Notes under the pieces: generated by a model | Seen by the model: the letters and a program-made list of their open reading frames with translations, nothing else | The model's database searches: none | Told to the model about the DNA's origin: nothing | Shown here: in pieces, positions 8,692 to 37,307 of the stretch | How the letters are laid out: each line of letters begins with the position of its first letter | How positions within the stretch are numbered: position 1 is the stretch's first letter | Position numbers and translations under genes: made by a program | Assembly (NCBI GenBank): GCA_041305385.1 | Contig: JBFYLO010000046.1 | Location: 491 to 64,490, forward strand | DNA: 64,000 nucleotides | DNA from: Candidatus Micrarchaeota archaeon | GTDB lineage: Archaea; Micrarchaeota; Micrarchaeia; Burarchaeales; JAKAKT01 | Direction of reading: 5' to 3'

Positions 8692-9155
8692 GGGACTTCG
8701 GCTGATTTTCGCTTGTTCTCCATCATTCTTTCGTAAATTTCCCCGACCCTTTTCTCATTAATTTTCTGCCCGAAGCACGTGTGCGGGACCAGGGCCCCGC
8801 TGAACGTCTTGGGGATGTGGAGCAGCTCGTGGATTAGGATTTTTTGCTTCTTTTCATCGTCCAATTTGTCGAAATACTCCGCCAGAACCTCAATCACGTA
8901 ATAAGCCTTAATCTCGAGCGCCACCTGCCAGATTCTCGGCATGCTCCAAATGCGGGCATACGCCCTCGCTTTAGAACCTCTGCTCCTCATGTAGATTAAG
9001 CGATATGAGTTTATGTGCGGGAGCTCTAGGAACGGGAGGATTTCCTCGGCCATCGCCTTTACATCGGGGGCAAGCTCAAAGTCCATGAAAAGATAGTGCC
9101 AATCAGTTTTATTTTGCTGTCTATCCCGGTTATTTTCCCCTATGCCCTGACCCAA
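8688..9155 (-). CDS. Predicted zinc metallopeptidase (HExxH; SprT/WLM/DUF45-like minimal fold)
   Basis: Single HELLH motif near C-terminus with downstream acidic residue; overlaps upstream 446-aa ORF by 26 nt (probable operon). Confidence 0.45.
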   Translation of the reverse strand: MGQGIGENNRDRQQNKTDWHYLFMDFELAPDVKAMAEEILPFLELPHINSYRLIYMRSRGSKARAYARIWSMPRIWQVALEIKAYYVIEVLAEYFDKLDDEKKQKILIHELLHIPKTFSGALVPHTCFGQKINEKRVGEIYERMMENKRKSAEVP

Positions 9156-10470
9156 TACCGGTTACACGATGAGTGGCAGTTATCTGTTCCGCAGTGGCAG
9201 TTCCAATAGTGCCATTGCGCCGAAGTGATTTAAGATTCCTCTCAGTGTTGGCAGGTCCTTTGTGCGTGCTCAGTACTCCCGCCCATACGTTCTCTGGAAC
9301 GCCGTACTGTTTGAGCATCTCAATTATTTTCTCTTGGTTGTTGGCCCTCGTGGTTTCTCTCGCATATGGCGACCACGTCCCGCGAATTTCTCCAGGCCTA
9401 ACTCCAAAATCCTGTGCAAGTTCACGAATTTCCGGGTCCTTAAACAGGCCTGCCATAATCTGGTCATGCGTTAGCTTCGCAAGGTATCTGCCCGTTCCGA
9501 CTTCTTGGGCAATGACTGCCAATGGTCGCATCTCAGAGTCAGCTAGGTACTCCTCCCAAATTGCTAAACCTATTTCGACTCTACTCATTACCAATCCAGC
9601 TATCTGCTCTTCCAGTTTCCGTTCAAGTATCCCCCTGGCTTCTGGCAAAGTAAGCGTTTTGAACACTCCATCGGTATCAGTTATCGAAATCATTTCCTGA
9701 GGAGGGCGCTCGCCGTCTTTTACATGGTCTAAAAATACACTTTCACCGTTTGCCTCCAACAGTATGTGATTAAGCCTCTCTAACTGCCTTTGTTTTCTTT
9801 CCAGGGTAGGTTTTCCTTTTCCTGTAAGTTGCCCCATCAAAACGTTCTCGCTAATCCTGAATCGCTTAGCGGTTTCCTTTACTTTCTGCCCATCAACCTC
9901 GCACCCCTGCTCCAGATAGTAAACGGCAGCCTTTACGGTTCGGATATGGTACAGCGTTCCCACGGTTATTGCTATTCTCTGGTTGGATTCTCTTGTATCG
10001 AAGATGCACGATTCGACACAGCGATACAATATGCAATTGAATTCATCATGGAAAAGGGGCTTTTCATTCAAAGTGCGCCCGATTCCCTCTCCAACGGCCG
10101 TCTGGTAATATTCTACCAGCGAGCCGTTCTCAGCAAGAACAGACTGAGCCATGTTGCGCCTGCCCAGTATGCGATTCGTATATCCCACTGCCAGTTTCCA
10201 GTGGGTGGCAACGAGCTGCTCCATTCCCCTCTTTGCCTCAAGCCTCATGCGTTCGAAAGTCGGGCCCGGCCTATTCCCGTTGAGTTTCTCTTTCGCCTCT
10301 GTAAAGTCAAAAACAGCTTTGCTTGCCCGAGCGTACTCCCCTTCACTCATCACCAGCCCATTTCCATTCCTAACGCTATGTTGGAAGTTCATCATGCTCT
10401 GGAACCATGCCTGAACTGAAAGGGGAGGGTGTCCATCCTCCCGCTGGCGCTGCTTCGCGCTAGTGTGCAT
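9130..10470 (-). CDS. Hypothetical protein, 446 aa, possible helix-turn-helix segments; no family recognised
   Basis: Long uninterrupted ORF with coding-like composition; co-oriented and overlapping with the metallopeptidase gene. Confidence 0.45.
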   Translation of the reverse strand: MHTSAKQRQREDGHPPLSVQAWFQSMMNFQHSVRNGNGLVMSEGEYARASKAVFDFTEAKEKLNGNRPGPTFERMRLEAKRGMEQLVATHWKLAVGYTNRILGRRNMAQSVLAENGSLVEYYQTAVGEGIGRTLNEKPLFHDEFNCILYRCVESCIFDTRESNQRIAITVGTLYHIRTVKAAVYYLEQGCEVDGQKVKETAKRFRISENVLMGQLTGKGKPTLERKQRQLERLNHILLEANGESVFLDHVKDGERPPQEMISITDTDGVFKTLTLPEARGILERKLEEQIAGLVMSRVEIGLAIWEEYLADSEMRPLAVIAQEVGTGRYLAKLTHDQIMAGLFKDPEIRELAQDFGVRPGEIRGTWSPYARETTRANNQEKIIEMLKQYGVPENVWAGVLSTHKGPANTERNLKSLRRNGTIGTATAEQITATHRVTGIGSGHRGK

Positions 10471-10582: not shown

Positions 10583-11005
10583 GTGATGCTAATGCCGGAT
10601 GACGAGACTGCCGAAGCTGTTGCAGATGACACTCACACAGACGAACTTGCTGCTGCTGGAGAGGAGGAAGTGGATGCGGCCCTCGACGAGAAATTGCCGT
10701 TCCCGACTGCCCGGGTTGTGCGGATAATCAAGGAGAACATGAAGAAGGAGCATCAGATCCGAAGCGAGGTCAAGATTGCGGCGAACATCCTTGCGGGCGA
10801 GATGCTCAAGGACATCGCGAGGCAGATGGACGAGGAGGAGTACTTCACGCTCTCCATTGAGCACTTCAACAAGGCGGCCAAGAAATACAGGGAGGTTGAC
10901 CTCCAGCTCAAGCGCCTCGAGAACATAAAAAAGATGCTGGAGAAGCAAAGGGCCGACCTTGAAGAGAAGATAATGCAGATAGAGAAAGCGGAAGAGTGGA
11001 AGTAA
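10583..11005 (+). CDS. Histone-fold protein of NF-Y/NC2/Dpb4 type with acidic N-terminal tail and C-terminal coiled coil
   Basis: LPFPTARVVRIIKENM...IAANILAGEMLKDIARQ matches the LP(x)ARI(K)KIMK alpha1-L1-alpha2 pattern of NF-YC/NC2 histone folds; N-terminus rich in D/E; C-terminus heptad-like K/E-rich. Confidence 0.5.
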   Translation: MMLMPDDETAEAVADDTHTDELAAAGEEEVDAALDEKLPFPTARVVRIIKENMKKEHQIRSEVKIAANILAGEMLKDIARQMDEEEYFTLSIEHFNKAAKKYREVDLQLKRLENIKKMLEKQRADLEEKIMQIEKAEEWK

Positions 11006-13686
11006 ACTATTCGGGGGTGAGGAACCTCCAGGTCCCTCAGCTAGACGTGGTCAAACTTGTTCTGTTCCTTCTGGTGATTCTTCCCTCTGCATCGGCGATT
11101 CCAGAACCGAAGCTTTCTTATTCGGAAACATATCCCGAGGCCAGGCCCTGGCCGGGCTGTTGGCCCGAAGAAGGAACCTCGATGCCCTGCTTCTACAGCC
11201 ACAACAGCGTTTCACTCAGCAGCAGATACGATTGCGGGTTCGATTCCGGGATAAACGCATACTTCGCGAGGAACGCGAGCTTCTCGTTCAGCATTCCGAG
11301 AACCGGGAATGCCACCCTCGCTTTCAGGATGTATGAATGCACCTACAACCCGCGCTGGATTACGGTGCTAGTAAACGGGATTTGCAGCATACAAGTCGAA
11401 AACAGGGCTTCCGGAGGCACGAACAGGGGCCCAACAACAAAAACAATCAACATAGCCGAAGATTGCCTGGTGGAAGGAGAAAACAGAATGGAGATAATCG
11501 GAGACGTTGAACTAGGCCTTGGAAAAATGGGGTGTCCGCAGCTTACCTGTCGAAAAGCCCCGCTTTACGCCGACTTTCGAATCCCGGAGCAAGTGAGAAG
11601 CTCGGAAGTTTACGGAAGCGTTTTTCTTGCGGAGAGTTTCTCCAGTTACCTTTTCAAGCCATTAATAGGTGAGGGAGCCAACGGAAGGCTCACTCTCCTG
11701 CCTGGTGCAGTTATTAATGAATGCACGGGTTGCGAGCTGTCTGGCTCAGAGATAAATCTCGGGCCAGGGACCCACAGGATAAACTATTCACTTGAAAACC
11801 TCCAGGTTCACCTCGCTTTCCCAAATTCCCACAACGCATTCCTCGCAAACGAAAGCCGAAAAATCAACGTCACGGTTTCCTACTTGGGAACCCCGACTTC
11901 GGCAGGCGTCTATTTCCCAGAAGGCACCCTTGCCTGCAATGCGGTTGGAGGTTCTTGTGGTCTCTTGCTTCCAGAGGCGGCAGTCGGCACCCATTCCATC
12001 GAGGTCCAGGCAATCGAGAGCCCCATTGGGAGAAGAGGAAAGGCCTCAGCTGGATATAAAATCGACCCGGACCCGGAAGTCAACGTTTCCGAGACTTCGG
12101 GTAGCTCGCTCCTAGTCACGTTCGAAATAATAAACCCAACTCACGAGAATTTCGTCCGCCTTCTCGCCTACTCCCTCCCAGAGGACTTCGAGGGCAATTT
12201 CAGCATAACGCCGCACCCAGAGAGCCTCTCCACATCGAATAGTTCCATCTCTTTCTCCGCCACCTGCCCGGCCTATTCAAACTGCACCTACAATGCGGTT
12301 TTCCCAATAAAAGGAGTTTTAGTCTCAGTTTCGCCAACTTCATTCCCGAAAATCTCCAGAGTCAGTGAGAGCATACTCTCTAAGGGCACGATTCTCCTTA
12401 CCAACACCAACCCAAAAAAGCCAATGCATTCAACCGGCAGAATTTGGAACTGCACCGAAGGGTGCGCGTGGGACTTAGAGCTCGCCCCGCTCGAGAGCAG
12501 GAGCCTCGAATACTCACTCGAACAAGCAGGAGCATCACCATGTGGTTCAAGAAAGACCGCGAGCGCAGGGGCGAGGGAAGAGCTGGAACTCTGTATCCGA
12601 GTGCCGGCCGGCTTTCCTGCGGCCACTAGTATCGAGTATTCGGTTCCGTTCGTTTCAATGCAAGGCTATTCCGGGAGTCCTGAAGCCAGAGTTAAAGGAG
12701 TTTCTGTTCCAATCACCGTCGGTTCGTCCGGACTTCTTATCTCCCTAGGGCTCCTTGCCCCCGGGGAGCACCAGGCAACCATCTCATACCTAAAAACAGC
12801 AGACCAAGCGCCAACCCAGAAAAACGATGCGCCGGAAACCAAAAAGCAAGAGGCGAAACAAGAGGAGTCACCCCCACCAGCCCCTCTCCCAGACAAGCCA
12901 GAAGTTTCAAAGCAGCCAGAACTCCTAATCACCGCTCCAGATGCATCGATGCTCTCCGAAATCGTCCAGGTGGTCGCCATATCCGGCGACTCGCCTGCTG
13001 AAGGCGAGATGTCATTCGTCTCACCGAGCGGAAGGGAGTTTTTGCTAAGACTCGATAATGGCCGGGCAGCCCTCAGGCTCGACGAGGTTGGAATTTGGAA
13101 AGTCAGCTATCAGGGACAGGAGCGTTCGATTCTGGTGGGGAGAACCATAACCGAAATCCCCAAGGAAACAGCAGGCCAACCAACACAGCACGAACTTTCC
13201 GATTTCTCCGTAGCTAGCAAAAGCTCCCCATCATCTGGTTTGGAATTGGGCTCGTGGGTTCTCCTCCTGCTGTTCATTCCGTTCCTTGCCATGCCCGCCC
13301 TTGGCTATCTCCTCATGGTGAGCTCTCGCGGGCCCCAGGTGCTTGTTTCGAAAAGATACGACGGAAAAAAAATCTATCTCGAAGTTGAGAACAGCGGAGG
13401 CGCCCTTACTGACATCTGGATTTCCGATTCCCTCCCAGATGATGCAGTCCTAGGGACTACCGGGGAAGGGAGCTTCAAGAAAACCATTTTTGGGAACGTG
13501 CTTAAGTGGAGGCTTCCTTCTCTCGATGGTGGTGCGAAGTGGAGTGCGAGCTATGAGATGAGGACAGTTTCCGAGAACATTGGAGGCGCGCGCCTCCAGG
13601 CGATAGACCTAAAGGGAAACCAGCTCAAGGCCGCGAGCGGGGAAACCGAGAAGTCAACAAGCAACAATTTAAATGGGGCCAGCTAA
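10996..13686 (+). CDS. Large cell-surface protein (signal peptide, Pro/Thr/Lys-rich linker, C-terminal TM anchor)
   Basis: Signal peptide better explained by GTG at 11047 (VKLVLFLLVILPSASA); many N-x-S/T sequons; PAPLPDKPEVSKQPE linker; C-terminal hydrophobic helix followed by a ~120 aa domain. Confidence 0.5.
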   Translation: MEVNYSGVRNLQVPQLDVVKLVLFLLVILPSASAIPEPKLSYSETYPEARPWPGCWPEEGTSMPCFYSHNSVSLSSRYDCGFDSGINAYFARNASFSFSIPRTGNATLAFRMYECTYNPRWITVLVNGICSIQVENRASGGTNRGPTTKTINIAEDCLVEGENRMEIIGDVELGLGKMGCPQLTCRKAPLYADFRIPEQVRSSEVYGSVFLAESFSSYLFKPLIGEGANGRLTLLPGAVINECTGCELSGSEINLGPGTHRINYSLENLQVHLAFPNSHNAFLANESRKINVTVSYLGTPTSAGVYFPEGTLACNAVGGSCGLLLPEAAVGTHSIEVQAIESPIGRRGKASAGYKIDPDPEVNVSETSGSSLLVTFEIINPTHENFVRLLAYSLPEDFEGNFSITPHPESLSTSNSSISFSATCPAYSNCTYNAVFPIKGVLVSVSPTSFPKISRVSESILSKGTILLTNTNPKKPMHSTGRIWNCTEGCAWDLELAPLESRSLEYSLEQAGASPCGSRKTASAGAREELELCIRVPAGFPAATSIEYSVPFVSMQGYSGSPEARVKGVSVPITVGSSGLLISLGLLAPGEHQATISYLKTADQAPTQKNDAPETKKQEAKQEESPPPAPLPDKPEVSKQPELLITAPDASMLSEIVQVVAISGDSPAEGEMSFVSPSGREFLLRLDNGRAALRLDEVGIWKVSYQGQERSILVGRTITEIPKETAGQPTQHELSDFSVASKSSPSSGLELGSWVLLLLFIPFLAMPALGYLLMVSSRGPQVLVSKRYDGKKIYLEVENSGGALTDIWISDSLPDDAVLGTTGEGSFKKTIFGNVLKWRLPSLDGGAKWSASYEMRTVSENIGGARLQAIDLKGNQLKAASGETEKSTSNNLNGAS

Positions 13687-13695
13687 CTTTCAACC

Positions 13696-14523
13696 ATGCG
13701 GGCATTGGGCATCGCGGCGTTGTTTCTTCTCCTAGCACAGGCAATGGCAAAGGACTGCTCGGAACTCGGGACCAACGGCACAATCTATTCAACCACGATC
13801 CTTTCAGAAGACTACTCTTCCCAAGGGGATTGCATCACCATCGGCTCCGACAACGTTACCCTAGACTGCGCCGGTCATTCCCTGACGGGCCGCGGGGGAG
13901 GGACGGGCATCTATGCCTTCGGCAGAAGAGGAGTCGAGATTAGGAACTGCCACGTCTCCAAATTCAACTATGGGGCACACTTCTCCTATGCAGACTCCTC
14001 CTTTCTAGAGGACAGCGCCTTTTCAGAATCTTATATCGGCATATACATTTCGTCTTCATCGAGCATAATTCTGCAAAAGAACTCCGCAGACAGGAACGGC
14101 CAGGGAATCTATGCCTACGACTTGCGCGATGGCATGATAGCAGCCGGAAGCGCAAAGAACAACAAGGGCCACGGACTAGAAATGAGGTCCTCCATCTCCA
14201 ACAAAATACGGGGCAACGACTTTTCCTCCAATCAAATAGGAATCGGGATATACTCCTCGTCAGACGTAGAGATAACTGGCAACGACCTGCGGGCCTGCTA
14301 TGAGGGAATCAAGCAAACCACAGCAAGGTCCATCAGCCAGTCCGGCAATGCCCAGGACATAATCTCAGGAAGCGGCTGGGACTCCCTGAGCGAAAACACC
14401 AGGACGATTGTCGCCATTGCGCTCGTCATCATGCTACTGGCGGCGCTCACGTTCATCATCGGAATTACCAAGCCGAAAAAGCCGGAGGACAAGCTCCCGT
14501 CAAGGGATGCTTGGGAGCACTAG
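13696..14523 (+). CDS. Secreted right-handed parallel beta-helix (NosD/PbH1-like) repeat protein with C-terminal TM anchor
   Basis: Signal peptide; repeated GxxGIYxxxSxxNxIxxN beta-helix repeats; C-terminal hydrophobic segment. Confidence 0.6.
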   Translation: MRALGIAALFLLLAQAMAKDCSELGTNGTIYSTTILSEDYSSQGDCITIGSDNVTLDCAGHSLTGRGGGTGIYAFGRRGVEIRNCHVSKFNYGAHFSYADSSFLEDSAFSESYIGIYISSSSSIILQKNSADRNGQGIYAYDLRDGMIAAGSAKNNKGHGLEMRSSISNKIRGNDFSSNQIGIGIYSSSDVEITGNDLRACYEGIKQTTARSISQSGNAQDIISGSGWDSLSENTRTIVAIALVIMLLAALTFIIGITKPKKPEDKLPSRDAWEH

Positions 14524-15303
14524 CAGGCGCTTGTATTCCTCAAAGGAAGACAGGACCTCCTCTTTCGATAGGGTTATCACGCGCCGCTCCCCGAGGCCCA
14601 CGCCGCCCGCCACTCTTTTTGCCGTCATGTTCTCAAGCCCAAGCAGTTCCCTCGAGTCATTGATTGCATTCCTGAGTTTTTTATTCCGGTGCTGGAACAC
14701 AGCGTTTATGAACAAGGAGAGCGGCCCCGGCACAGTGCCCCGCTTCCTCAGCCTCACCAGTGCCGAATCCACTTTCGGCTTCGGGCAGAATGCCCCCGCA
14801 GGGACAGAGCAAAGGCTTTCGACCTCAAAAAGAAGCTGGCACATCACCGAGAAGCGCGAGTAGTCCCTGGAACCAGGGGATGCGTCCATCCTCCCAGCAA
14901 GCTCTTTCTGAATGCAGATTACCGCTTCCTTGAAATCGAACGCAGGGAACTTCAGAATCAGTTTTGAGGCGATGCAATAGGGAAGATTTGAGACTATCAG
15001 GTCGAATTTCCCGCCCTCCAGAGCAAGGGCATCCCCGCAGATTATTTCAATATTCTTGAACTCCCGGAGCCTTTCCTTCAGGATGGGGACAAATCGCTCG
15101 TCAATCTCCACAACCGTCAGATGTTTCGCCTCTTTCGCCAGCCCAATTGACAATGCCCCGAGCCCAGGGCCTATCTCGAGAACCGTTTTCCCGCTCGGGC
15201 TGCAGAAGGAGAGCTCGCGCTCAATGTAATTGTTGTCGATGAGGAAGTTCTGCCCCAATCTCCTGTCAGCACCCAGTCCGCGTATGAGGCCTGCGTCGCT
15301 CAT
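14500..15303 (-). CDS. ksgA: 16S rRNA (adenine1518/1519-N6)-dimethyltransferase KsgA/Dim1
   Basis: GQNFL, VLEIGPGLGALS SAM motif, LIVSNLPY. Confidence 0.85.
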   Translation of the reverse strand: MSDAGLIRGLGADRRLGQNFLIDNNYIERELSFCSPSGKTVLEIGPGLGALSIGLAKEAKHLTVVEIDERFVPILKERLREFKNIEIICGDALALEGGKFDLIVSNLPYCIASKLILKFPAFDFKEAVICIQKELAGRMDASPGSRDYSRFSVMCQLLFEVESLCSVPAGAFCPKPKVDSALVRLRKRGTVPGPLSLFINAVFQHRNKKLRNAINDSRELLGLENMTAKRVAGGVGLGERRVITLSKEEVLSSFEEYKRLLVLPSIP

Positions 15304-15369: not shown

Positions 15370-15933
15370 TTAATACATCGGCTCCCGGTGCGGGGGCCTC
15401 GTGAGAACATAGTATTTTGAATCTCCCTTAAGTTCCTCTTCTATCCTGTCAACCAGTATGTGAACTGGGTTCGGGAGCAGCGGCACCCTCTTGCTGATGT
15501 CTGCGAAACTCTCGAAGGGCTTCTTTTCCCTCTCGGCGATTAGGTTGTGCATGTGCTTCTTTCCAACCCCTGGCAGGAGCTCGAGCTGGTGGAGCCTTAT
15601 GGTTATCGGACCGCACTTGTTTAGGAAATTGACATACTCCGGCTCGCGGGTCTTCAGTATCTGTTCGATGACTGACTTGAGGCTGCTGCGAGCCGAAGAA
15701 GTGAGGTCCATGAAGTTGATTCTGCCCTTTATGTGGTCTATCCTGTCCCTGTCTCCCTTCCCAATGTAAATTCTTTCTCCGACTTTCATTTGGGCTTCAG
15801 GCTTCGGGGTTACCTCGAGAATGGTAAAGTACGTTTCGCCTATCACCTGGGCCAGGGACTCCTTCTTAGTATCCGTGCTCTTGCCGTACGGCAGGAAGTC
15901 CAATACGACCGCGTACTCTTCCATCGTAGCCAT
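15370..15933 (-). CDS. DUF655 family protein (HhH nucleic-acid-binding protein conserved next to rpoF/ksgA in archaea)
   Basis: LELLPGVGKKHMHNLI helix-hairpin-helix; conserved archaeal gene order rpoF-L21e-DUF655-ksgA. Confidence 0.65.
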   Translation of the reverse strand: MATMEEYAVVLDFLPYGKSTDTKKESLAQVIGETYFTILEVTPKPEAQMKVGERIYIGKGDRDRIDHIKGRINFMDLTSSARSSLKSVIEQILKTREPEYVNFLNKCGPITIRLHQLELLPGVGKKHMHNLIAEREKKPFESFADISKRVPLLPNPVHILVDRIEEELKGDSKYYVLTRPPHREPMY

Positions 15934-15944
15934 TGACCATCGCC

Positions 15945-16295
15945 CTATGCAGGTGAATACTTCTCAACAATCTTGAGCATCTCCGCCATTTCAGCCTTGC
16001 TGAACGCGTGCCTCTCCTTCGCAACTATGACGCTCAGCTGCGCCTCGCTCTTAGGGAGTAGGTCCACCATCTTTATCACTATCTCTGGAGTGACCTTGTC
16101 GAGCTTTGTAAGCTCCTCGACCATCTCGTCAGCCTTCTTCCTGTCAAGAATCGTGCGCGCTTTCAGGTAATCATAGGTTGCCTGCTGCTCGAAGCCGAGC
16201 TCGCCTTCTGCCTTTCTGGCTTCCATTACCTTTTGGACTTCGGCCAGAGTCACCGGCTTCTGCGAGCTTATTCCCTTTCCAATCATTGAATTCAC
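15945..16295 (-). CDS. rpoF: DNA-directed RNA polymerase subunit F (Rpo4/RpoF)
   Basis: Similarity to M. jannaschii subunit F C-terminal half (VDLLP...VIVAKE...AEMLKIVEKY); gene order. Confidence 0.65.
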   Translation of the reverse strand: MNSMIGKGISSQKPVTLAEVQKVMEARKAEGELGFEQQATYDYLKARTILDRKKADEMVEELTKLDKVTPEIVIKMVDLLPKSEAQLSVIVAKERHAFSKAEMAEMLKIVEKYSPA

Positions 16296-16567
16296 CTTAA
16301 ATGAACCGGGGGTATTGTCAGCTCCTTCTCGCTGTCACCAACCCCGACTTTTACAACGCAAGCGTTTCCCCTCTTGCCAACGACTATCCCGGTCAGGCCC
16401 CTGTACCGTGGGTGGGGCATCCCGGAGTGGCCGGATTTCGGGTCGATTGAGACCCTCGCCCCATTCTTGAATTCACGGATGATTGCGCCTATGGTTACTC
16501 CGACCCTGTTCTTCTTGCGCAGAAGCCTGCTTCTCTTCGATAGCTTTCCTCGCGATCTCTTTGCCAT
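16292..16567 (-). CDS. rpl21e: 50S ribosomal protein L21e
   Basis: SGHSGMPHPRYRGLTGIVVGKRGNACVVKV matches the L21e core; start taken at the internal MAKRSRGK; 4-nt overlap with rpoF. Confidence 0.8.
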   Translation of the reverse strand: MAKRSRGKLSKRSRLLRKKNRVGVTIGAIIREFKNGARVSIDPKSGHSGMPHPRYRGLTGIVVGKRGNACVVKVGVGDSEKELTIPPVHLR

Positions 16568-16627
16568 GCTACCCCCTCTTCGTCGAGTATGTCTCCTACC
16601 CTTTATATACATATTTAAATCATTAGG

Positions 16628-16637
16628 TTTATAAATA
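16628..16637 (+). promoter_or_regulatory. TATA box (TTTATAAATA) for the TBP-repeat gene; the same AT-rich region serves the divergent L21e operon
   Basis: About 29 nt upstream of ATG 16666, consistent with leaderless archaeal transcription. Confidence 0.45.
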
Positions 16638-16665
16638 GTTCCAGAGTCTCTTTCGGGTGGTTCTC

Positions 16666-16977
16666 ATGGTTAAGAAGAAAGGGGTAAGCCCATCGAAAAT
16701 CGATACGCGTTTTAAGATTGAAAACATTGTCGCTTCCGCGAACCTTGGCATAGAGCTCGACCTCTATTCCATAGCGCAGAAGGTCAAGGACGTCGAGTAC
16801 GAGCCAGAGCAGTTCCCGGGCGCTATCCTTAAACTTAAGGACCCGAGGGCTTCGCTCCTGCTTTTCAAGAACGGAAAGATAATCTGCACGGGCTCGAAGA
16901 GCGAGAAGGAAGTGAAATTCGCCCTTGAGAGGGCAGTGAAGCTCCTGGCAGCTCACGCGAGGGCGAAGCCTGCATAG
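16666..16977 (+). CDS. Single-repeat TATA-box-binding protein (one TBP domain, 103 aa)
   Basis: IENIVASANL..LDL...EYEPEQFPGAILKL.DP.ASLLLFKNGKIICTGSKSE aligns along the full length of one TBP repeat (hybrid of N- and C-repeat signatures); no second repeat upstream (divergent L21e promoter) or downstream (5S rRNA). Confidence 0.7.
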   Translation: MVKKKGVSPSKIDTRFKIENIVASANLGIELDLYSIAQKVKDVEYEPEQFPGAILKLKDPRASLLLFKNGKIICTGSKSEKEVKFALERAVKLLAAHARAKPA

Positions 16978-16978
16978 T

Positions 16979-16986
16979 TTTATAAA
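16979..16986 (+). promoter_or_regulatory. TATA box (TTTATAAA) for the 5S rRNA gene
   Basis: Located ~22 nt upstream of the predicted 5S 5' end. Confidence 0.45.
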
Positions 16987-17005
16987 CCCTGTCGGGCAGA
17001 ATATC

Positions 17006-17129
17006 CCCTGGTCAGCGACCACAGGAGAGGGGAAACACCCGAACCCATTCCGAACTCGGAAGTTAAGCTCTCTCACGATGTTGCTTGTACTGCCCTTGCG
17101 GGCGGGAACGCGCATTGTTGCTGACCATT
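17006..17129 (+). rRNA. rrf: 5S ribosomal RNA (orphan copy, not linked to 16S/23S in this window)
   Basis: CCCGAACCCATTCCGAACTCGGAAGTTAAGC matches the conserved 5S loop B/helix III region; terminal helix I pairing TGGTCAGC/GCTGACCA; length ~124 nt; boundaries +/-3 nt. Confidence 0.75.
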
Positions 17130-17220: not shown

Positions 17221-18186
17221 ATGCTTAGAGAGAAACAGACTTCTAATCAGGGTGTTCCCCATGTGAATACCTACGATTTGATTAGAAACAGCCCCTTCCT
17301 CAGGGAACATGGAGCTAAGGCAGTTGACCGTTTTATGAAAGCCTTGGACCGAGGAGATGCAGTGCAGATAGAAAAGGAATCTAACCTGCTCCAAAGAGTG
17401 CACTCCCTCTCCGAGAAAAGCAAAAGTCTATTCTTTTCCGAAGAACGCCAGGCGAACCTGGAGTGGATACTGGCCAGAAGCCTGGACTCCGGAAGGCTTC
17501 CGTTAGTCTCTTACGAAAGGACCAACACGTTTACTCCCATCGGGCATAAACCTCCGACCATTGAAGAGCAGGTGAGAACTCTGGGATATGATTTGAGCCC
17601 AACGGCACCTGGAGGAAAAGCAAACATTCCTGGTCCAGTAGCCAACGGTCCTTTAGATAAAGAAATCCGAAAACAGATAGCAAACGAGGAGAGCGATAAT
17701 GCGATTGCATATAAGAAGACCCTGGACGAAATACGAGAAGCAAACAAACATTCTGACAAAACTGGAATTGAAAAAACAATGTTCGAGAAAATGCTCGCCG
17801 GCGAACTGCCCCCCGCCCAGATGAATGTTTTCAAATATACGGACCCAGCCGGGGAAACGAAGAGCATAGCAATTGTCTACTATATCAACGAAGAAGGCGC
17901 ATTCGTGCCCCTCGGGGAACTCAAGAAAGAATTCGTCTCAGATTCAATGCGAATAGACCGGGAGACCGCAGACCGAGCCAGCGCCTTCTATAATGACGAC
18001 AAGGCCGGGAACTTCGGGAGTTATTCCCCGGCTGTCGAGGATGACCCGATTGCAGCAGTCAACAAAACAGTTGGCAAGCAGTCAGCCAAGGCAATTGTTT
18101 TCTACGAAGCGGGGATGGGAGCGATGGAGCGCATTGCCTCCATAACAGATGAAGAGATAAAAAGAGTCATTTCAGGAAAAGCCTAA
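17221..18186 (+). CDS. Hypothetical protein (321 aa), no family recognised
   Basis: Long ORF with coding-like composition; AT-rich promoter-like sequence upstream. Confidence 0.4.
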   Translation: MLREKQTSNQGVPHVNTYDLIRNSPFLREHGAKAVDRFMKALDRGDAVQIEKESNLLQRVHSLSEKSKSLFFSEERQANLEWILARSLDSGRLPLVSYERTNTFTPIGHKPPTIEEQVRTLGYDLSPTAPGGKANIPGPVANGPLDKEIRKQIANEESDNAIAYKKTLDEIREANKHSDKTGIEKTMFEKMLAGELPPAQMNVFKYTDPAGETKSIAIVYYINEEGAFVPLGELKKEFVSDSMRIDRETADRASAFYNDDKAGNFGSYSPAVEDDPIAAVNKTVGKQSAKAIVFYEAGMGAMERIASITDEEIKRVISGKA

Positions 18187-36110: not shown

Positions 36111-36758
36111 TTAAAGCTTCCTTATGAAATCATGGCCCAGTTTTATCTCCTTTCTCCTGTGCTTTTTTGCGAGCTTGGCCGCCATCTTGCGCTCATGGTC
36201 GAGTATGAGGTGCTTCGACTCCATCCCTCCCTCCTCAACATCTTGTTTTTTAGCAGCAGCATTCTTCGGACCCATCTTCCCAAAGACTTCAGCCAGCTGT
36301 TTTCCCTTCAAAACGAAAACAGCAGCAAATATTATGAAGGCGATTGCCGCGGCCTGGCCGGTCTCAATGGGCGGGAGAGTGAGGTCTATGTTCGGTCCAA
36401 TGGGCCCCCCCAACTCTCCGGTCACGGTTATTGTCTTCTCAACGAGATTTTCCCCGCAGGCGACATTTATCCTGAGCCGCTCCCCAGGCCTCTTGGGGGT
36501 GTAGCTTATCACCGCCTTCCCCTTCGAATCAGTCATGTATGTGTATCTGCCCAGCGTAGTCTCTATCCCGGCTCTTGTTTCCATCACAGAGACAAGGATT
36601 TTGCAGTTCGAGTAAGGCCCTCCGTCCGGCTTCGTAACGTTCACAGCGCTCTTCCAGAGCGAGCAGCACTCGATGTTGTCATTCGAGAAAATCACGTCCG
36701 CCCAGCTAATCCCAATCAGGACAAGCAAAGCTATTGCTGCAGCCGAACGGTAGACCAT
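36111..36758 (-). CDS. Secreted membrane-anchored protein (signal peptide, C-proximal TM, Lys-rich cytoplasmic tail)
   Basis: N-terminal signal; TM AAIAFIIFAAVFVL; KK-rich tail. Confidence 0.4.
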   Translation of the reverse strand: MVYRSAAAIALLVLIGISWADVIFSNDNIECCSLWKSAVNVTKPDGGPYSNCKILVSVMETRAGIETTLGRYTYMTDSKGKAVISYTPKRPGERLRINVACGENLVEKTITVTGELGGPIGPNIDLTLPPIETGQAAAIAFIIFAAVFVLKGKQLAEVFGKMGPKNAAAKKQDVEEGGMESKHLILDHERKMAAKLAKKHRRKEIKLGHDFIRKL

Positions 36759-36794
36759 TGTCTCCTAAACCTATCTCAAGGGCGCTTAAAAAGG

Positions 36795-37307
36795 TTATTC
36801 TGTTATGGTGACTGGGATTATCTTAGTCCCAAGAACAGAACCGCTGGCATTAACTATCTCCATCCGCAGTTCCATCCTTCCCGGCATGCCCGGGCCCACC
36901 ACCTGGTTGAAGAAGAAGACAGGCTGTTCGAGGCTTTTTTCAATTCCTGGCTCAAGTGGGACCAGGCTTTCCGTCCCTCCCTCCAGCCCAGTCACACCGG
37001 TCCAGCTCCTGTCAGCCCCGTTTATCGCCTCCTCGGAATACAGGGGAACCCTCATCTCGTAAATGTCGTATTTCTGGTCAAGAACCTTCAGGTAATTGGT
37101 TATTGAGTCCCTGCTGGTTATGTTTGCCCGGATATGGAAATAGGTCGAATCCCTTGGAAAAGAGATGGAGTCATCGAAGGTCCCCTCGGTTTTCTGGCCA
37201 TCTGCGTCAATGAGAAGATAGCCGAGCTTGAAATCGACTTTCTCCTCTGGCTTGGGACAGCCGAAAAGCAATAGAAGGGCAATTGGGATTACCCACAGAA
37301 TCCTCAT
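36795..37307 (-). CDS. Secreted protein, probable lipoprotein (LLLFGC lipobox-like)
   Basis: MRILWVIPIALLLLFGCPKP signal; start taken at the internal Met. Confidence 0.45.
   Translation of the reverse strand: MRILWVIPIALLLLFGCPKPEEKVDFKLGYLLIDADGQKTEGTFDDSISFPRDSTYFHIRANITSRDSITNYLKVLDQKYDIYEMRVPLYSEEAINGADRSWTGVTGLEGGTESLVPLEPGIEKSLEQPVFFFNQVVGPGMPGRMELRMEIVNASGSVLGTKIIPVTITE

What the first reader, a model, noticed from the sequence alone, without database searches (positions are those of the whole stretch)
16628..16990. Stand-alone single-repeat TBP gene (103 aa) with its own TATA box
Archaeal and eukaryal TBPs are two tandem ~90-aa repeats. This ORF encodes exactly one complete repeat. 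It mixes N-repeat (IENIVAS) and C-repeat (EYEPEQFPG) signatures, carries a short Lys-rich N-terminal tail and ends at a stop codon. The other half cannot lie on either side, because the divergent L21e promoter is upstream and a 5S rRNA gene is downstream. It could be a homodimerising ancestral-like TBP, or one half of a split TBP. Either would be unusual for a core transcription factor.
Basis: partly seen in the sequence, partly recalled or inferred. Interest (0 to 1): 0.75.

Follow-up and report, generated by a model that had tools for sequence, protein, structure and literature searches.

The report
Half-size TATA-binding protein gene
This archaeon, like most sampled relatives in the phylum Micrarchaeota, encodes its TATA-binding protein as one 100-residue repeat instead of the usual fused pair, so the DNA-binding saddle probably forms from two copies of one small protein.

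Summary
Window 16666-16977 (+) encodes a 103-aa protein with exactly one complete TBP repeat (Pfam PF00352, 100.6 bits). L21e lies upstream on the other strand, and a 5S rRNA gene follows 34 nt after the stop. No second repeat exists in any frame of the 64 kb.

It is not an assembly artefact. 63 of 80 loci from Micrarchaeota species genomes carry the same about 100-aa single-repeat gene. In most of them it sits in the same slot (KsgA<-DUF655<-RpoF<-L21e | TBP), where the other 17 loci carry a two-repeat TBP. One identical 100-aa homologue recurs in four separate metagenomes. Against the closest orthologue, dN/dS is 0.006.

The kinking phenylalanines, the minor-groove residues and the TFB-binding stirrup are invariant among the close homologues. 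The predicted fold superposes on half of M. jannaschii TBP at 0.9 A.

Best reading (confidence about 0.6): this is the cell's general TBP and works as a symmetric homodimer, with TFB and the BRE setting direction. Dimerisation and the absence of another TBP elsewhere in the genome are not shown. Whether the single-repeat state is ancestral or a secondary collapse is unresolved.

I found no paper describing this. It is a new variant of a known kind; interest 0.7.

The parts
16666..16977 (+). Coding sequence of the single-repeat TBP. It is 103 aa plus a TAG stop. Residues 1-15 form a Lys-rich tail, 16-95 are one complete TBP repeat, and 96-103 form a short basic C-terminal tail.
   Evidence: ORF and translation. 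Pfam PF00352 at 100.6 bits. Gapless alignment to both halves of 2z8u, 1mp9, 1pcz and 1ais. AF2 model pLDDT 83.4, Foldseek 2z8u_B rmsd 0.9 A over 80 columns. dN/dS 0.006 against L001.
16628..16635 (.). Palindromic TATA-like box TTTATAAA, the likely promoter element of the TBP gene. Using the 5S promoter as a ruler, the transcription start would be near 16660, 6 nt before the ATG.
   Evidence: Pattern search found 3 matches in the window against 0.67 expected. Two of them are this one and the one upstream of 5S. The same octamer lies upstream of orthologues L001-L005, L014, L016, L021 and L032. The start-site position is inferred, not mapped.
16602..16619 (.). Two further TATA-like boxes in the divergent spacer: TTTATATA at 16602-16609 and TATTTAAA at 16612-16619 (TTTAAATA on the minus strand). 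They probably serve the L21e-RpoF-DUF655 genes. The assignment is ambiguous.
   Evidence: Sequence, pattern search, and the same arrangement in L001.
16655..16660 (+). GGGTGG, a Shine-Dalgarno-like motif 6 nt upstream of the ATG. A GGTG-type motif recurs at this position in most orthologous loci.
   Evidence: Upstream regions of 80 loci. Function is inferred only, and it conflicts partly with the predicted start site at about 16660.
16292..16567 (-). Ribosomal protein L21e gene, divergent from the TBP gene.
   Evidence: Pfam PF01157 at 64.4 bits. Conserved upstream neighbour of TBP in most related loci.
15945..16295 (-). RNA polymerase subunit F (Rpb4 family), part of the conserved block next to TBP.
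   Evidence: Pfam PF03874 at 41.5 bits; synteny.
15370..15933 (-). DUF655 protein, part of the conserved block.
   Evidence: Pfam PF04919 at 221.7 bits; synteny.
14500..15303 (-). rRNA adenine dimethylase (KsgA/Dim1 family), part of the conserved block.
   Evidence: Pfam PF00398 at 157 bits; synteny.
16979..16986 (+). TTTATAAA box of the 5S rRNA promoter. It starts 2 nt after the TBP stop codon, and its 3' end lies 24 nt upstream of the 5S gene.
17011..17126 (+). 5S rRNA gene immediately downstream. It rules out a second TBP repeat on this side.
   Evidence: Rfam RF00001 at 71.8 bits, full-length match. A 5S gene lies downstream of TBP in 26 of 80 related loci.

Best explanation
The gene encodes the organism's general TATA-binding protein in a one-repeat form. 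Two identical 103-aa subunits are proposed to pair through the surfaces that hold the N- and C-repeats together in ordinary TBP. This would give a perfectly two-fold symmetric ten-stranded saddle.

That dimer would bind and kink the A/T-rich box with four phenylalanines (F50 and F67 from each subunit). It would offer two identical acidic stirrups (E46-P47-E48-Q49). TFB would take whichever stirrup lies next to a BRE, so promoter direction would be set by TFB and the BRE, as already established for archaea, and not by TBP.

Shown here:
- the gene is complete and strongly constrained;
- it is widespread in Micrarchaeota and sits in the slot of the two-repeat TBP;
- all canonical contact residues are retained.

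Inferred:
- homodimerisation;
- DNA and TFB binding;
- the role as the only TBP of the cell.

The single-repeat state most likely arose by collapse of a two-repeat gene. Some Micrarchaeota lineages probably re-duplicated it later. The opposite polarity is not excluded.
For: 1. One complete repeat and nothing more. Pfam gives a single PF00352 hit. There is no second repeat in any frame of the window or within about 3 kb of the single-repeat loci.

2. Not an artefact.
- At least 13 protein clusters of 100-117 aa are 81-96% identical and come from JGI, ENA, NCBI and Logan.
- 63 of 80 GTDB species loci are single-repeat.
- The identical protein P0119 occurs in four different metagenomes in the same gene context.

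3. Positional orthology. In 69 of 80 loci the TBP gene, whether one- or two-repeat, follows the divergent KsgA<-DUF655<-RpoF<-L21e block.

4. Constraint.
- The 79-codon core is identical in protein to L001 while 12% of nucleotides differ, giving dN/dS 0.006.
- dN/dS is about 0.09 against L012, L014 and L016.
- 65 positions are invariant among 12 close homologues. These include N20, V22, F50, F67, T75, K71, K78 and E46-P47-E48-Q49. They map, by alignment and by my recollection of the yeast and P. woesei structures, to the DNA- and TFB-contacting residues.

5. Fold. The AF2 model has pLDDT 83.4 and strand/helix order S1-H1-S2-S3-S4-S5-H2. The top 44 Foldseek PDB hits are all TBPs, and TM-score normalised to the target is about 0.45, meaning half a saddle.

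6. Natural fusion evidence. Micrarchaeota two-repeat TBPs have N and C repeats that are 66-80% identical to each other and 70-76% identical to this protein. Two copies of essentially this sequence therefore do pack into one TBP.

7. Only two assemblies yielded more than one locus, and no assembly yielded both a single-repeat and a two-repeat gene.

8. Archaeal pre-initiation complex orientation depends on TFB and the BRE (Bell et al. 1999, cited in PMC4041446). A symmetric TBP is therefore mechanistically tolerable.
Against: - Dimerisation, DNA binding and TFB binding were not tested. A dimer could not be modelled with the tools allowed.
- Whole genomes could not be scanned. A divergent ordinary TBP elsewhere in the genome would have been missed.
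- One complete genome (CP058998.1) and one MAG (JAPLWT01) carry two or three distinct single-repeat genes (L004+L006; L005+L007a/b). Heterodimers are therefore possible in that clade, which is the sister group of the window's lineage in the marker tree.
- The AF2 monomer built from a shallow alignment was poor (pLDDT 59).
- There is no expression evidence.
Confidence: 0.6

Rival explanations
1. Split TBP. The protein is one half of a heterodimer. The partner is a second, different single-repeat TBP gene encoded elsewhere in the genome, outside this window.
For: The complete genome of Ca. Fermentimicrarchaeum limneticum (CP058998.1) has two separate single-repeat genes about 600 kb apart. L004 sits in the L21e slot and L006 sits in another context. 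MAG JAPLWT01 has L005 plus two tandem copies in L007. L008 and L010 belong to the same 'type B' group. This clade is the sister of the window's lineage in the marker tree.
Against: - Type B genes were found in only 4 of the 78 assemblies behind the 80 loci. They nest inside the type A radiation as a recent duplicate, so they are not a universal partner.
- The other assemblies yielded a single locus, although the scan could return two loci per genome.
- The type B cores differ from type A at only a few positions and keep every contact residue. They look like alternative TBP paralogues rather than a complementary half.
- The window contains no second repeat.
Confidence: 0.17
2. Accessory paralogue. 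An ordinary two-repeat TBP elsewhere in the genome does the general job. This half-size protein would be a regulator, a decoy or a specialised factor, like haloarchaeal TbpA or the Thermococcales single-domain proteins.
For: This is the precedent for the stand-alone TBP-domain proteins described so far (Brindefalk et al. 2013, PMC3597702). The rest of this genome could not be inspected.
Against: - The gene occupies the slot where related genomes have their two-repeat TBP.
- No genome gave both a single-repeat and a two-repeat locus, including a complete 1.18-Mb chromosome and contigs of 0.36-1.3 Mb. This holds only within the limits of the pattern scan.
- Conservation is as extreme as expected for an essential factor.
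- Unlike the Thermococcales proteins, it is 40-50% identical to the repeats of solved canonical archaeal TBPs and keeps every contact residue.
Confidence: 0.15
3. Artefact or pseudogene: an assembly deletion, a frameshift, or a decaying remnant of a two-repeat gene.
For: None beyond the unusual length. NCBI's TBP models score it below their cut-offs (94.7 bits against 270), and one homologue is labelled 'hypothetical protein' in an NCBI record.
Against: - The same architecture appears in 63 species-level genomes and many independent assemblies.
- The stop codon is followed directly by a functional-looking 5S promoter and gene.
- dN/dS is 0.006.
- There is no TBP-like remnant in any frame nearby.
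Confidence: 0.02

Closest known systems
Canonical archaeal TBP (two tandem repeats, about 180 aa; e.g. M. jannaschii 2Z8U, P. woesei 1PCZ/1AIS, S. acidocaldarius 1MP9)
   Same: Same Pfam family. It is 40-50% identical to either repeat, and the alignment has no gaps. Secondary-structure order and fold are the same. The Phe pair, the Asn/Val/Thr minor-groove residues and the acidic stirrup are conserved. The gene sits in the locus of the two-repeat TBP of related Micrarchaeota.
   Different: There is one repeat per polypeptide instead of two. A functional saddle therefore needs two chains and would be exactly symmetric, not pseudo-symmetric. NCBIfam TBP models score it below their cut-offs.
Two-repeat TBPs of some Micrarchaeota (including Anstonellaceae; loci L026-L031, L033-L040, L043, L057, L059)
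   Same: Same genomic slot. Each repeat is 70-76% identical to this protein, and the basic linker resembles its Lys-rich N-terminal tail.
   Different: They are covalently fused. Their repeats are unusually alike (66-80%, against 43-55% in other archaea), which suggests recent re-duplication or gene conversion.
Haloarchaeal TbpA (single TBP domain)
   Same: A stand-alone single TBP domain that clusters with true TBP repeats (Brindefalk et al. 2013).
   Different: TbpA coexists with full-length TBPs, is very similar to them and is not essential. Here the single-repeat gene is the positional orthologue of the main TBP, and no full-length TBP was detected in the same assemblies.
Thermococcales monopartite TBP-domain proteins (about 82-136 aa; e.g. 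P. furiosus NP_578195)
   Same: Small proteins that consist of one TBP-like domain.
   Different: They are strongly diverged from TBP, form their own cluster and coexist with a normal TBP. The present protein is a bona fide TBP repeat with 100 bits to PF00352.
TBP-like domains of RNase HIII and DNA glycosylases
   Same: The same helix-grip half-saddle fold occurs as a single copy.
   Different: Those domains sit inside multidomain enzymes, have no sequence similarity at this level and play no role in transcription initiation. Among Foldseek hits only TBPs were significant. mOGG1 appeared at E 0.43.

Membership tests
TBP family (Pfam PF00352) | Significant match to the TBP repeat profile over its full length | tested here: met
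   100.6 bits against a cut-off of 22.9, covering profile positions 2-83 of 85.
Canonical TBP (general transcription factor of Archaea and Eukarya) | Two tandem repeats in one polypeptide forming a pseudo-symmetric saddle | tested here: not met
   One domain only. No second repeat in the window. All NCBIfam TBP models score below cut-off, e.g. 94.7 against 270.
Canonical TBP | DNA-kinking Phe pair and minor-groove Asn/Val/Thr in each repeat | tested here: met
   F50, F67, N20, V22 and T75 are invariant in the family and aligned to the same columns of solved TBPs. The mapping to yeast F99/F116/N69/V71/T124 is from my own knowledge.
Canonical TBP | Acidic stirrup (E-P-E-Q/L) that contacts TFB/TFIIB | tested here: met
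   E46-P47-E48-Q49 is invariant among the 12 close homologues. E46, P47 and Q49 are also invariant, and E48 nearly so, across the 71-sequence alignment. Actual binding was not tested.
Canonical TBP | TBP half-saddle fold (S1-H1-S2-S3-S4-S5-H2) | tested here: met
   AF2 pLDDT 83.4. Foldseek 2z8u_B rmsd 0.9 A over 80 columns, and the top 44 hits are all TBPs.
Canonical TBP | Orthology to the organism's main TBP gene | tested here: met
   It occupies the same KsgA<-DUF655<-RpoF<-L21e | TBP slot as the two-repeat TBPs of related genomes, in 69 of 80 loci.
Canonical TBP | Binds and bends TATA DNA and recruits TFB and RNA polymerase | not testable with these tools
   Needs biochemistry or multimer modelling.
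Homodimeric single-repeat TBP (proposed) | Self-association of two identical chains into a saddle | not testable with these tools
   Indirect evidence only: natural fusions of two nearly identical repeats exist.
Homodimeric single-repeat TBP (proposed) | No other TBP gene in the genome | tested here: inconclusive
   None in the 64-kb window. No assembly had both a single- and a two-repeat locus.
Accessory monopartite TBP-domain proteins (TbpA / Thermococcales type) | Coexists with a full-length TBP in the same genome | tested here: inconclusive
   No full-length TBP was detected in the same assemblies. Sensitivity was limited.
Accessory monopartite TBP-domain proteins (Thermococcales type) | Strong divergence from TBP repeats, forming a separate sequence cluster | tested here: not met
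   40-50% identity to the repeats of solved archaeal TBPs and 70-76% to Micrarchaeota two-repeat TBPs.

The most novel reading that the evidence does not exclude
Across most of the phylum Micrarchaeota the only general TBP is an obligate homodimer of a single repeat. It would be a living equivalent of the hypothetical pre-duplication TBP. Repeat number at this locus has flipped between one and two more than once, through collapse and re-duplication. Such cycles would also explain why the two repeats of archaeal TBPs resemble each other within a lineage more than they resemble the same repeat in other phyla.
Probability: 0.45. Interest if true: 0.85.

Novelty: new variant of a known kind. Interest (0 to 1): 0.7.

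Why it matters
TBP is treated as a two-repeat protein throughout Archaea and Eukarya. Its internal symmetry is the standard argument that it arose from a homodimeric ancestor by gene duplication.

A natural lineage whose orthologous, highly constrained TBP is a single repeat makes that idea directly testable:
- Can a perfectly symmetric TBP support directional initiation?
- How do TFB and the BRE alone set polarity?
- What did covalent fusion add?

The finding also shows that repeat number in a core transcription factor is evolutionarily labile.

There is a practical warning too. These genes fall below the NCBIfam TBP cut-offs, and at least one homologue is labelled 'hypothetical protein' in an NCBI record. 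Genome surveys may therefore score TBP as missing in these DPANN archaea.

Tried and rejected
1. I looked up the exact window protein in the assembly index with both possible starts. It is not on record, so the source genome could not be identified or scanned.

2. An AF2 run with a shallow 12-sequence alignment gave pLDDT 59. I discarded it in favour of a 71-sequence alignment.

3. A dimer model was not possible, because the structure tool takes one natural chain only.

4. I tried to decide whether the single repeat descends from the N or the C repeat.
- Identities to Iainarchaeota (Diapherotrites) N and C repeats split the single-repeat genes about evenly (32 of 65 are closer to N).
- Bootstrap support for every deep grouping is low, 10-38%.
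- This question is unresolved.

5. The Biopython bootstrap timed out. I replaced it with my own NJ code.

6. I tested whether the palindromic TTTATAAA is a general promoter motif. There are only 3 copies in the window, too few to say.

7. Literature searches for single-repeat, monopartite or homodimeric TBP in Micrarchaeota or DPANN found nothing beyond Brindefalk et al. 2013.

8. No TFB gene turned up among the 25 window ORFs scanned against Pfam.

9. The antisense 166-aa ORF at 16615-17115 overlaps the TBP gene and the 5S gene and is taken as spurious.

Full report
**What is in the window**

The + strand ORF from ATG 16666 to the TAG stop at 16975-16977 encodes 103 aa. Pfam finds one TBP repeat and nothing else: PF00352, 100.6 bits, residues 16-95, profile positions 2-83 of 85.

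The upstream neighbours on the minus strand are:
- ribosomal protein L21e (16292-16567);
- RNA polymerase subunit F/Rpb4 (15945-16295);
- a DUF655 protein (15370-15933);
- the KsgA-type rRNA dimethylase (14500-15303).

Downstream, 34 nt after the stop, a full-length 5S rRNA gene runs from 17011 to 17126 (Rfam 71.8 bits).

tblastn of the protein against all six frames of the 64-kb window finds no second TBP-like stretch, even at E<10.

Two points need adjusting.
- 'IENIVAS' and 'EYEPEQFPG' do not separate N from C repeats in archaea. M. jannaschii TBP has EYEPEQFPG in both halves. The protein aligns without gaps and with near-equal scores to both halves of 2Z8U (72.0 and 73.0 bits), 1MP9 (70.3 and 60.8) and 1PCZ (61.5 and 64.5).
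- The 16602-16635 spacer contains three TATA-like boxes shared with the divergent L21e gene.

**Promoter**

The octamer TTTATAAA is a perfect palindrome. It occurs three times in the window, against 0.67 expected.
- One copy is at 16628-16635, upstream of the TBP gene.
- A second is at 16979-16986. Its 3' end lies 24 nt before the 5S gene, which is the expected archaeal TATA-to-start distance.

Using the 5S promoter as a ruler, the TBP transcript would start near 16660, 6 nt before the ATG. This is an inference, because no start-site data exist. The same octamer lies upstream of many orthologues. In some of them it sits too close to the start codon, so box-to-gene assignment in this divergent spacer stays ambiguous.

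**Not an artefact**

- The protein database search returned at least 13 clusters of 100-117-aa proteins that are 81-96% identical to this one. They come from JGI, ENA, NCBI and Logan assemblies, and all end at about the same place.
- The scan of one genome per GTDB species returned 80 loci, almost all labelled Micrarchaeota. By tblastn and phmmer, 63 of them carry a single repeat in an open frame of about 90-130 codons. The other 17 carry two repeats in one ORF.
- The identical 100-aa homologue P0119 is present in four different JGI metagenomes. In three of them, where the contig is long enough, it sits between the same neighbouring genes.
- Against the closest species (L001), the 79-codon core is identical in protein while 12% of nucleotides differ, giving dN/dS = 0.006. 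Against L012, L014 and L016, dN/dS is about 0.09.

A pseudogene or an assembly deletion is effectively excluded.

**It is the positional orthologue of the ordinary TBP**

In 69 of 80 loci the TBP gene, whether one- or two-repeat, lies directly after the divergent block KsgA<-DUF655<-RpoF<-L21e. In 26 loci a 5S gene lies downstream. The window gene therefore occupies the slot where related genomes, including Anstonellaceae, have their two-repeat TBP.

**It keeps everything a TBP repeat needs**

Among 12 close homologues, 65 positions are invariant. They include:
- N20, V22 and T75 (minor-groove contacts);
- F50 and F67 (the kinking phenylalanine pair);
- K71 and K78;
- the stirrup E46-P47-E48-Q49, which contacts TFB.

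The mapping to yeast N69/V71/F99/F116/T124 and to the TFIIB-contact residues is from my own knowledge of the TBP structures.

With a 71-sequence alignment, AlphaFold2 gives pLDDT 83.4, with the core above 90, and the order S1-H1-S2-S3-S4-S5-H2. In Foldseek against the PDB, the top 44 hits are all TBPs. The best is M. jannaschii TBP at 0.9 A over 80 columns. The TM-score is 0.75 normalised to the query and 0.45 normalised to the target, which means exactly half a saddle. The Lys-rich residues 1-13 are predicted to be disordered. They resemble the basic linker of the two-repeat relatives.

**How it most likely works**

Half a saddle cannot bind a TATA box like TBP, so two chains are needed.

The strongest indirect evidence that two copies of this sequence pair correctly comes from natural fusions. 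In Micrarchaeota two-repeat TBPs, the N and C repeats are 66-80% identical to each other and 70-76% identical to this protein. In M. jannaschii, P. woesei, S. acidocaldarius, Aenigmatarchaeota and Iainarchaeota, N-to-C identity is only 43-55%.

A homodimer would be exactly two-fold symmetric, with two identical TFB-binding stirrups. In archaea the direction of the pre-initiation complex is set by TFB reading the BRE (Bell et al. 1999, cited in PMC4041446). A symmetric TBP is therefore compatible with directional initiation.

I put this explanation at about 0.6. The steps not shown are dimerisation, DNA and TFB binding, and the absence of any other TBP in the genome.

**Rival explanations**

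*Split TBP or heterodimer (about 0.17).*
- The complete chromosome of Ca. Fermentimicrarchaeum limneticum has two separate single-repeat genes. L004 is in the L21e slot, and L006 lies about 600 kb away in another context.
- MAG JAPLWT01 has L005 plus two tandem copies in L007.
- L008 and L010 are of the same 'type B'.
- This clade is sister to the window's lineage in a DUF655+RpoF+L21e tree, so the window's genome might also have a type B gene.
- However, type B was seen in only four assemblies, nests within type A as a recent duplicate, and keeps all contact residues. It looks like an alternative TBP paralogue rather than an obligatory complementary half.

*Accessory paralogue beside a normal TBP elsewhere (about 0.15).*
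- This is the precedent for the single-domain cases described so far, haloarchaeal TbpA and the divergent Thermococcales proteins (Brindefalk et al. 2013).
- Against it stand the positional orthology, the extreme constraint, and the fact that no assembly gave both a single-repeat and a two-repeat locus.
A divergent TBP would have been missed, so this test is inconclusive.

*Artefact or pseudogene (about 0.02).* See the section 'Not an artefact' above.

**Evolution**

- A neighbour-joining tree of all repeats places every Micrarchaeota repeat (single, N and C) in one group in the full-data tree. The N and C repeats of L029 and of L039 come out as sisters.
- Both the N and the C repeats of all 17 Micrarchaeota two-repeat proteins are closer to the Iainarchaeota N repeat than to its C repeat.
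- In a tree of the three neighbouring marker genes, the two-repeat genomes sit between single-repeat lineages under midpoint rooting.
- Together these results favour one or more re-duplications of a single-repeat gene, or strong gene conversion. Bootstrap support for the deep splits is low: 35% for Micrarchaeota monophyly, 36% for a single two-repeat group and 10% for clade II plus Iainarchaeota C.
- One large single-repeat clade (L041-L080) is robust at 100%. At several N/C-discriminating columns it looks more C-like, while the window's clade looks more N-like. Independent collapses therefore cannot be excluded.
- Micrarchaeota repeats plus both Iainarchaeota repeats group together at 75% to the exclusion of other archaeal repeats. 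N and C identity is thus not conserved across phyla. Cycles of collapse and re-duplication would explain that.
- Whether the single-repeat state is a relic or a secondary reduction remains open. Because all other archaea and eukaryotes have fused repeats, I consider secondary collapse more likely.

**Comparison with what is known, and novelty**

The protein belongs to the TBP family by sequence, fold, contact residues and locus. It fails the defining two-repeat architecture of canonical TBP and scores below every NCBIfam TBP cut-off (94.7 bits against 270). That probably explains why one homologue is labelled 'hypothetical protein' in an NCBI record.

It differs from TbpA and from the Thermococcales proteins because it is the orthologue of the main TBP and is not diverged from true TBP repeats.

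Full-text searches for single-repeat, monopartite or homodimeric TBP in Micrarchaeota or DPANN returned only Brindefalk et al. 2013. Papers on Micrarchaeota genomics that I checked do not mention it. The searched library is incomplete, so prior mention elsewhere cannot be ruled out.

I class it as a new variant of a known kind and score interest at 0.7. A core initiation factor in a one-repeat form across much of a phylum would surprise specialists, and it would make the homodimeric-ancestor hypothesis experimentally testable. The key functional claims are still inferences.

Noticed in passing
L004 and L006 (CP058998.1); L005 and L007 (JAPLWT01); L008; L010: A second class of single-repeat TBP genes ('type B', 101-104 aa, with GCKNEREVKYALERAIKLL in helix H2) lies outside the L21e slot in the Fermentimicrarchaeum clade. 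L007 has two copies about 1.27 kb apart, and L007b shares a near-identical upstream region with L008. Homo- and heterodimer combinations would be possible.
   Followed up: partly
L026-L031, L033-L040, L043, L057, L059: Micrarchaeota two-repeat TBPs have N and C repeats that are 66-80% identical, against 43-55% in other archaea. In L029 and L039 the two repeats are each other's closest relatives. This points to recent re-duplication or gene conversion.
   Followed up: partly
repeat alignment built from L001-L080 plus outgroups: N and C repeats do not form domain-wide N and C clades. Both Iainarchaeota repeats group with all Micrarchaeota repeats (75% bootstrap) to the exclusion of the repeats of M. 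jannaschii, P. woesei, S. acidocaldarius and Aenigmatarchaeota. This suggests concerted evolution of the two halves.
   Followed up: partly
window 16975-17126 and 26 related loci: A solitary 5S rRNA gene with its own TTTATAAA box starts 34 nt after the TBP stop. The TBP-5S adjacency recurs in 26 of 80 Micrarchaeota loci. The T-run of the 5S TATA box abuts the TBP stop codon and could double as its terminator.
   Followed up: partly
window 16666-16974; P0081: All NCBIfam TBP models hit the protein but score far below their curated cut-offs (best 94.7 bits against 270). At least one homologue is labelled 'hypothetical protein' in an NCBI record. Surveys may score TBP as absent in these genomes.
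   Followed up: yes
window 10996-13686, 9130-10470, 17221-18186, 1669-2622, 36132-37106: Five sizeable ORFs (896, 446, 321, 317 and 324 aa) have no Pfam match at E<=0.001. The 321-aa ORF lies directly downstream of the 5S gene.
   Followed up: no
P0126, P0121, P0180: Odd TBP-family proteins turned up in the representative library. One is a 702-aa protein with four diverged TBP-like repeats and a long C-terminal extension. One is a 272-aa archaeal-type TBP with three repeats, the N repeat being duplicated. One is a 125-aa chimera of a Clp-type N-terminus and a Micrarchaeota TBP repeat, probably an assembly chimera.
   Followed up: no
window 16615-17115 (-): A 166-aa antisense ORF spans the TBP gene and the 5S gene. 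It is almost certainly spurious, but a naive longest-ORF gene caller picks it over the real TBP gene.
   Followed up: yes
L058, L062, L067: Three clade II single-repeat TBP genes have 3 kb of upstream sequence but lack the KsgA/DUF655/RpoF/L21e block. The locus is therefore not fixed in every lineage.
   Followed up: no
L081 3946-6423: An inositol-1-phosphate synthase gene interrupted by an intein with a LAGLIDADG domain lies about 4 kb from the TBP locus on an 81-kb Micrarchaeota contig.
   Followed up: no
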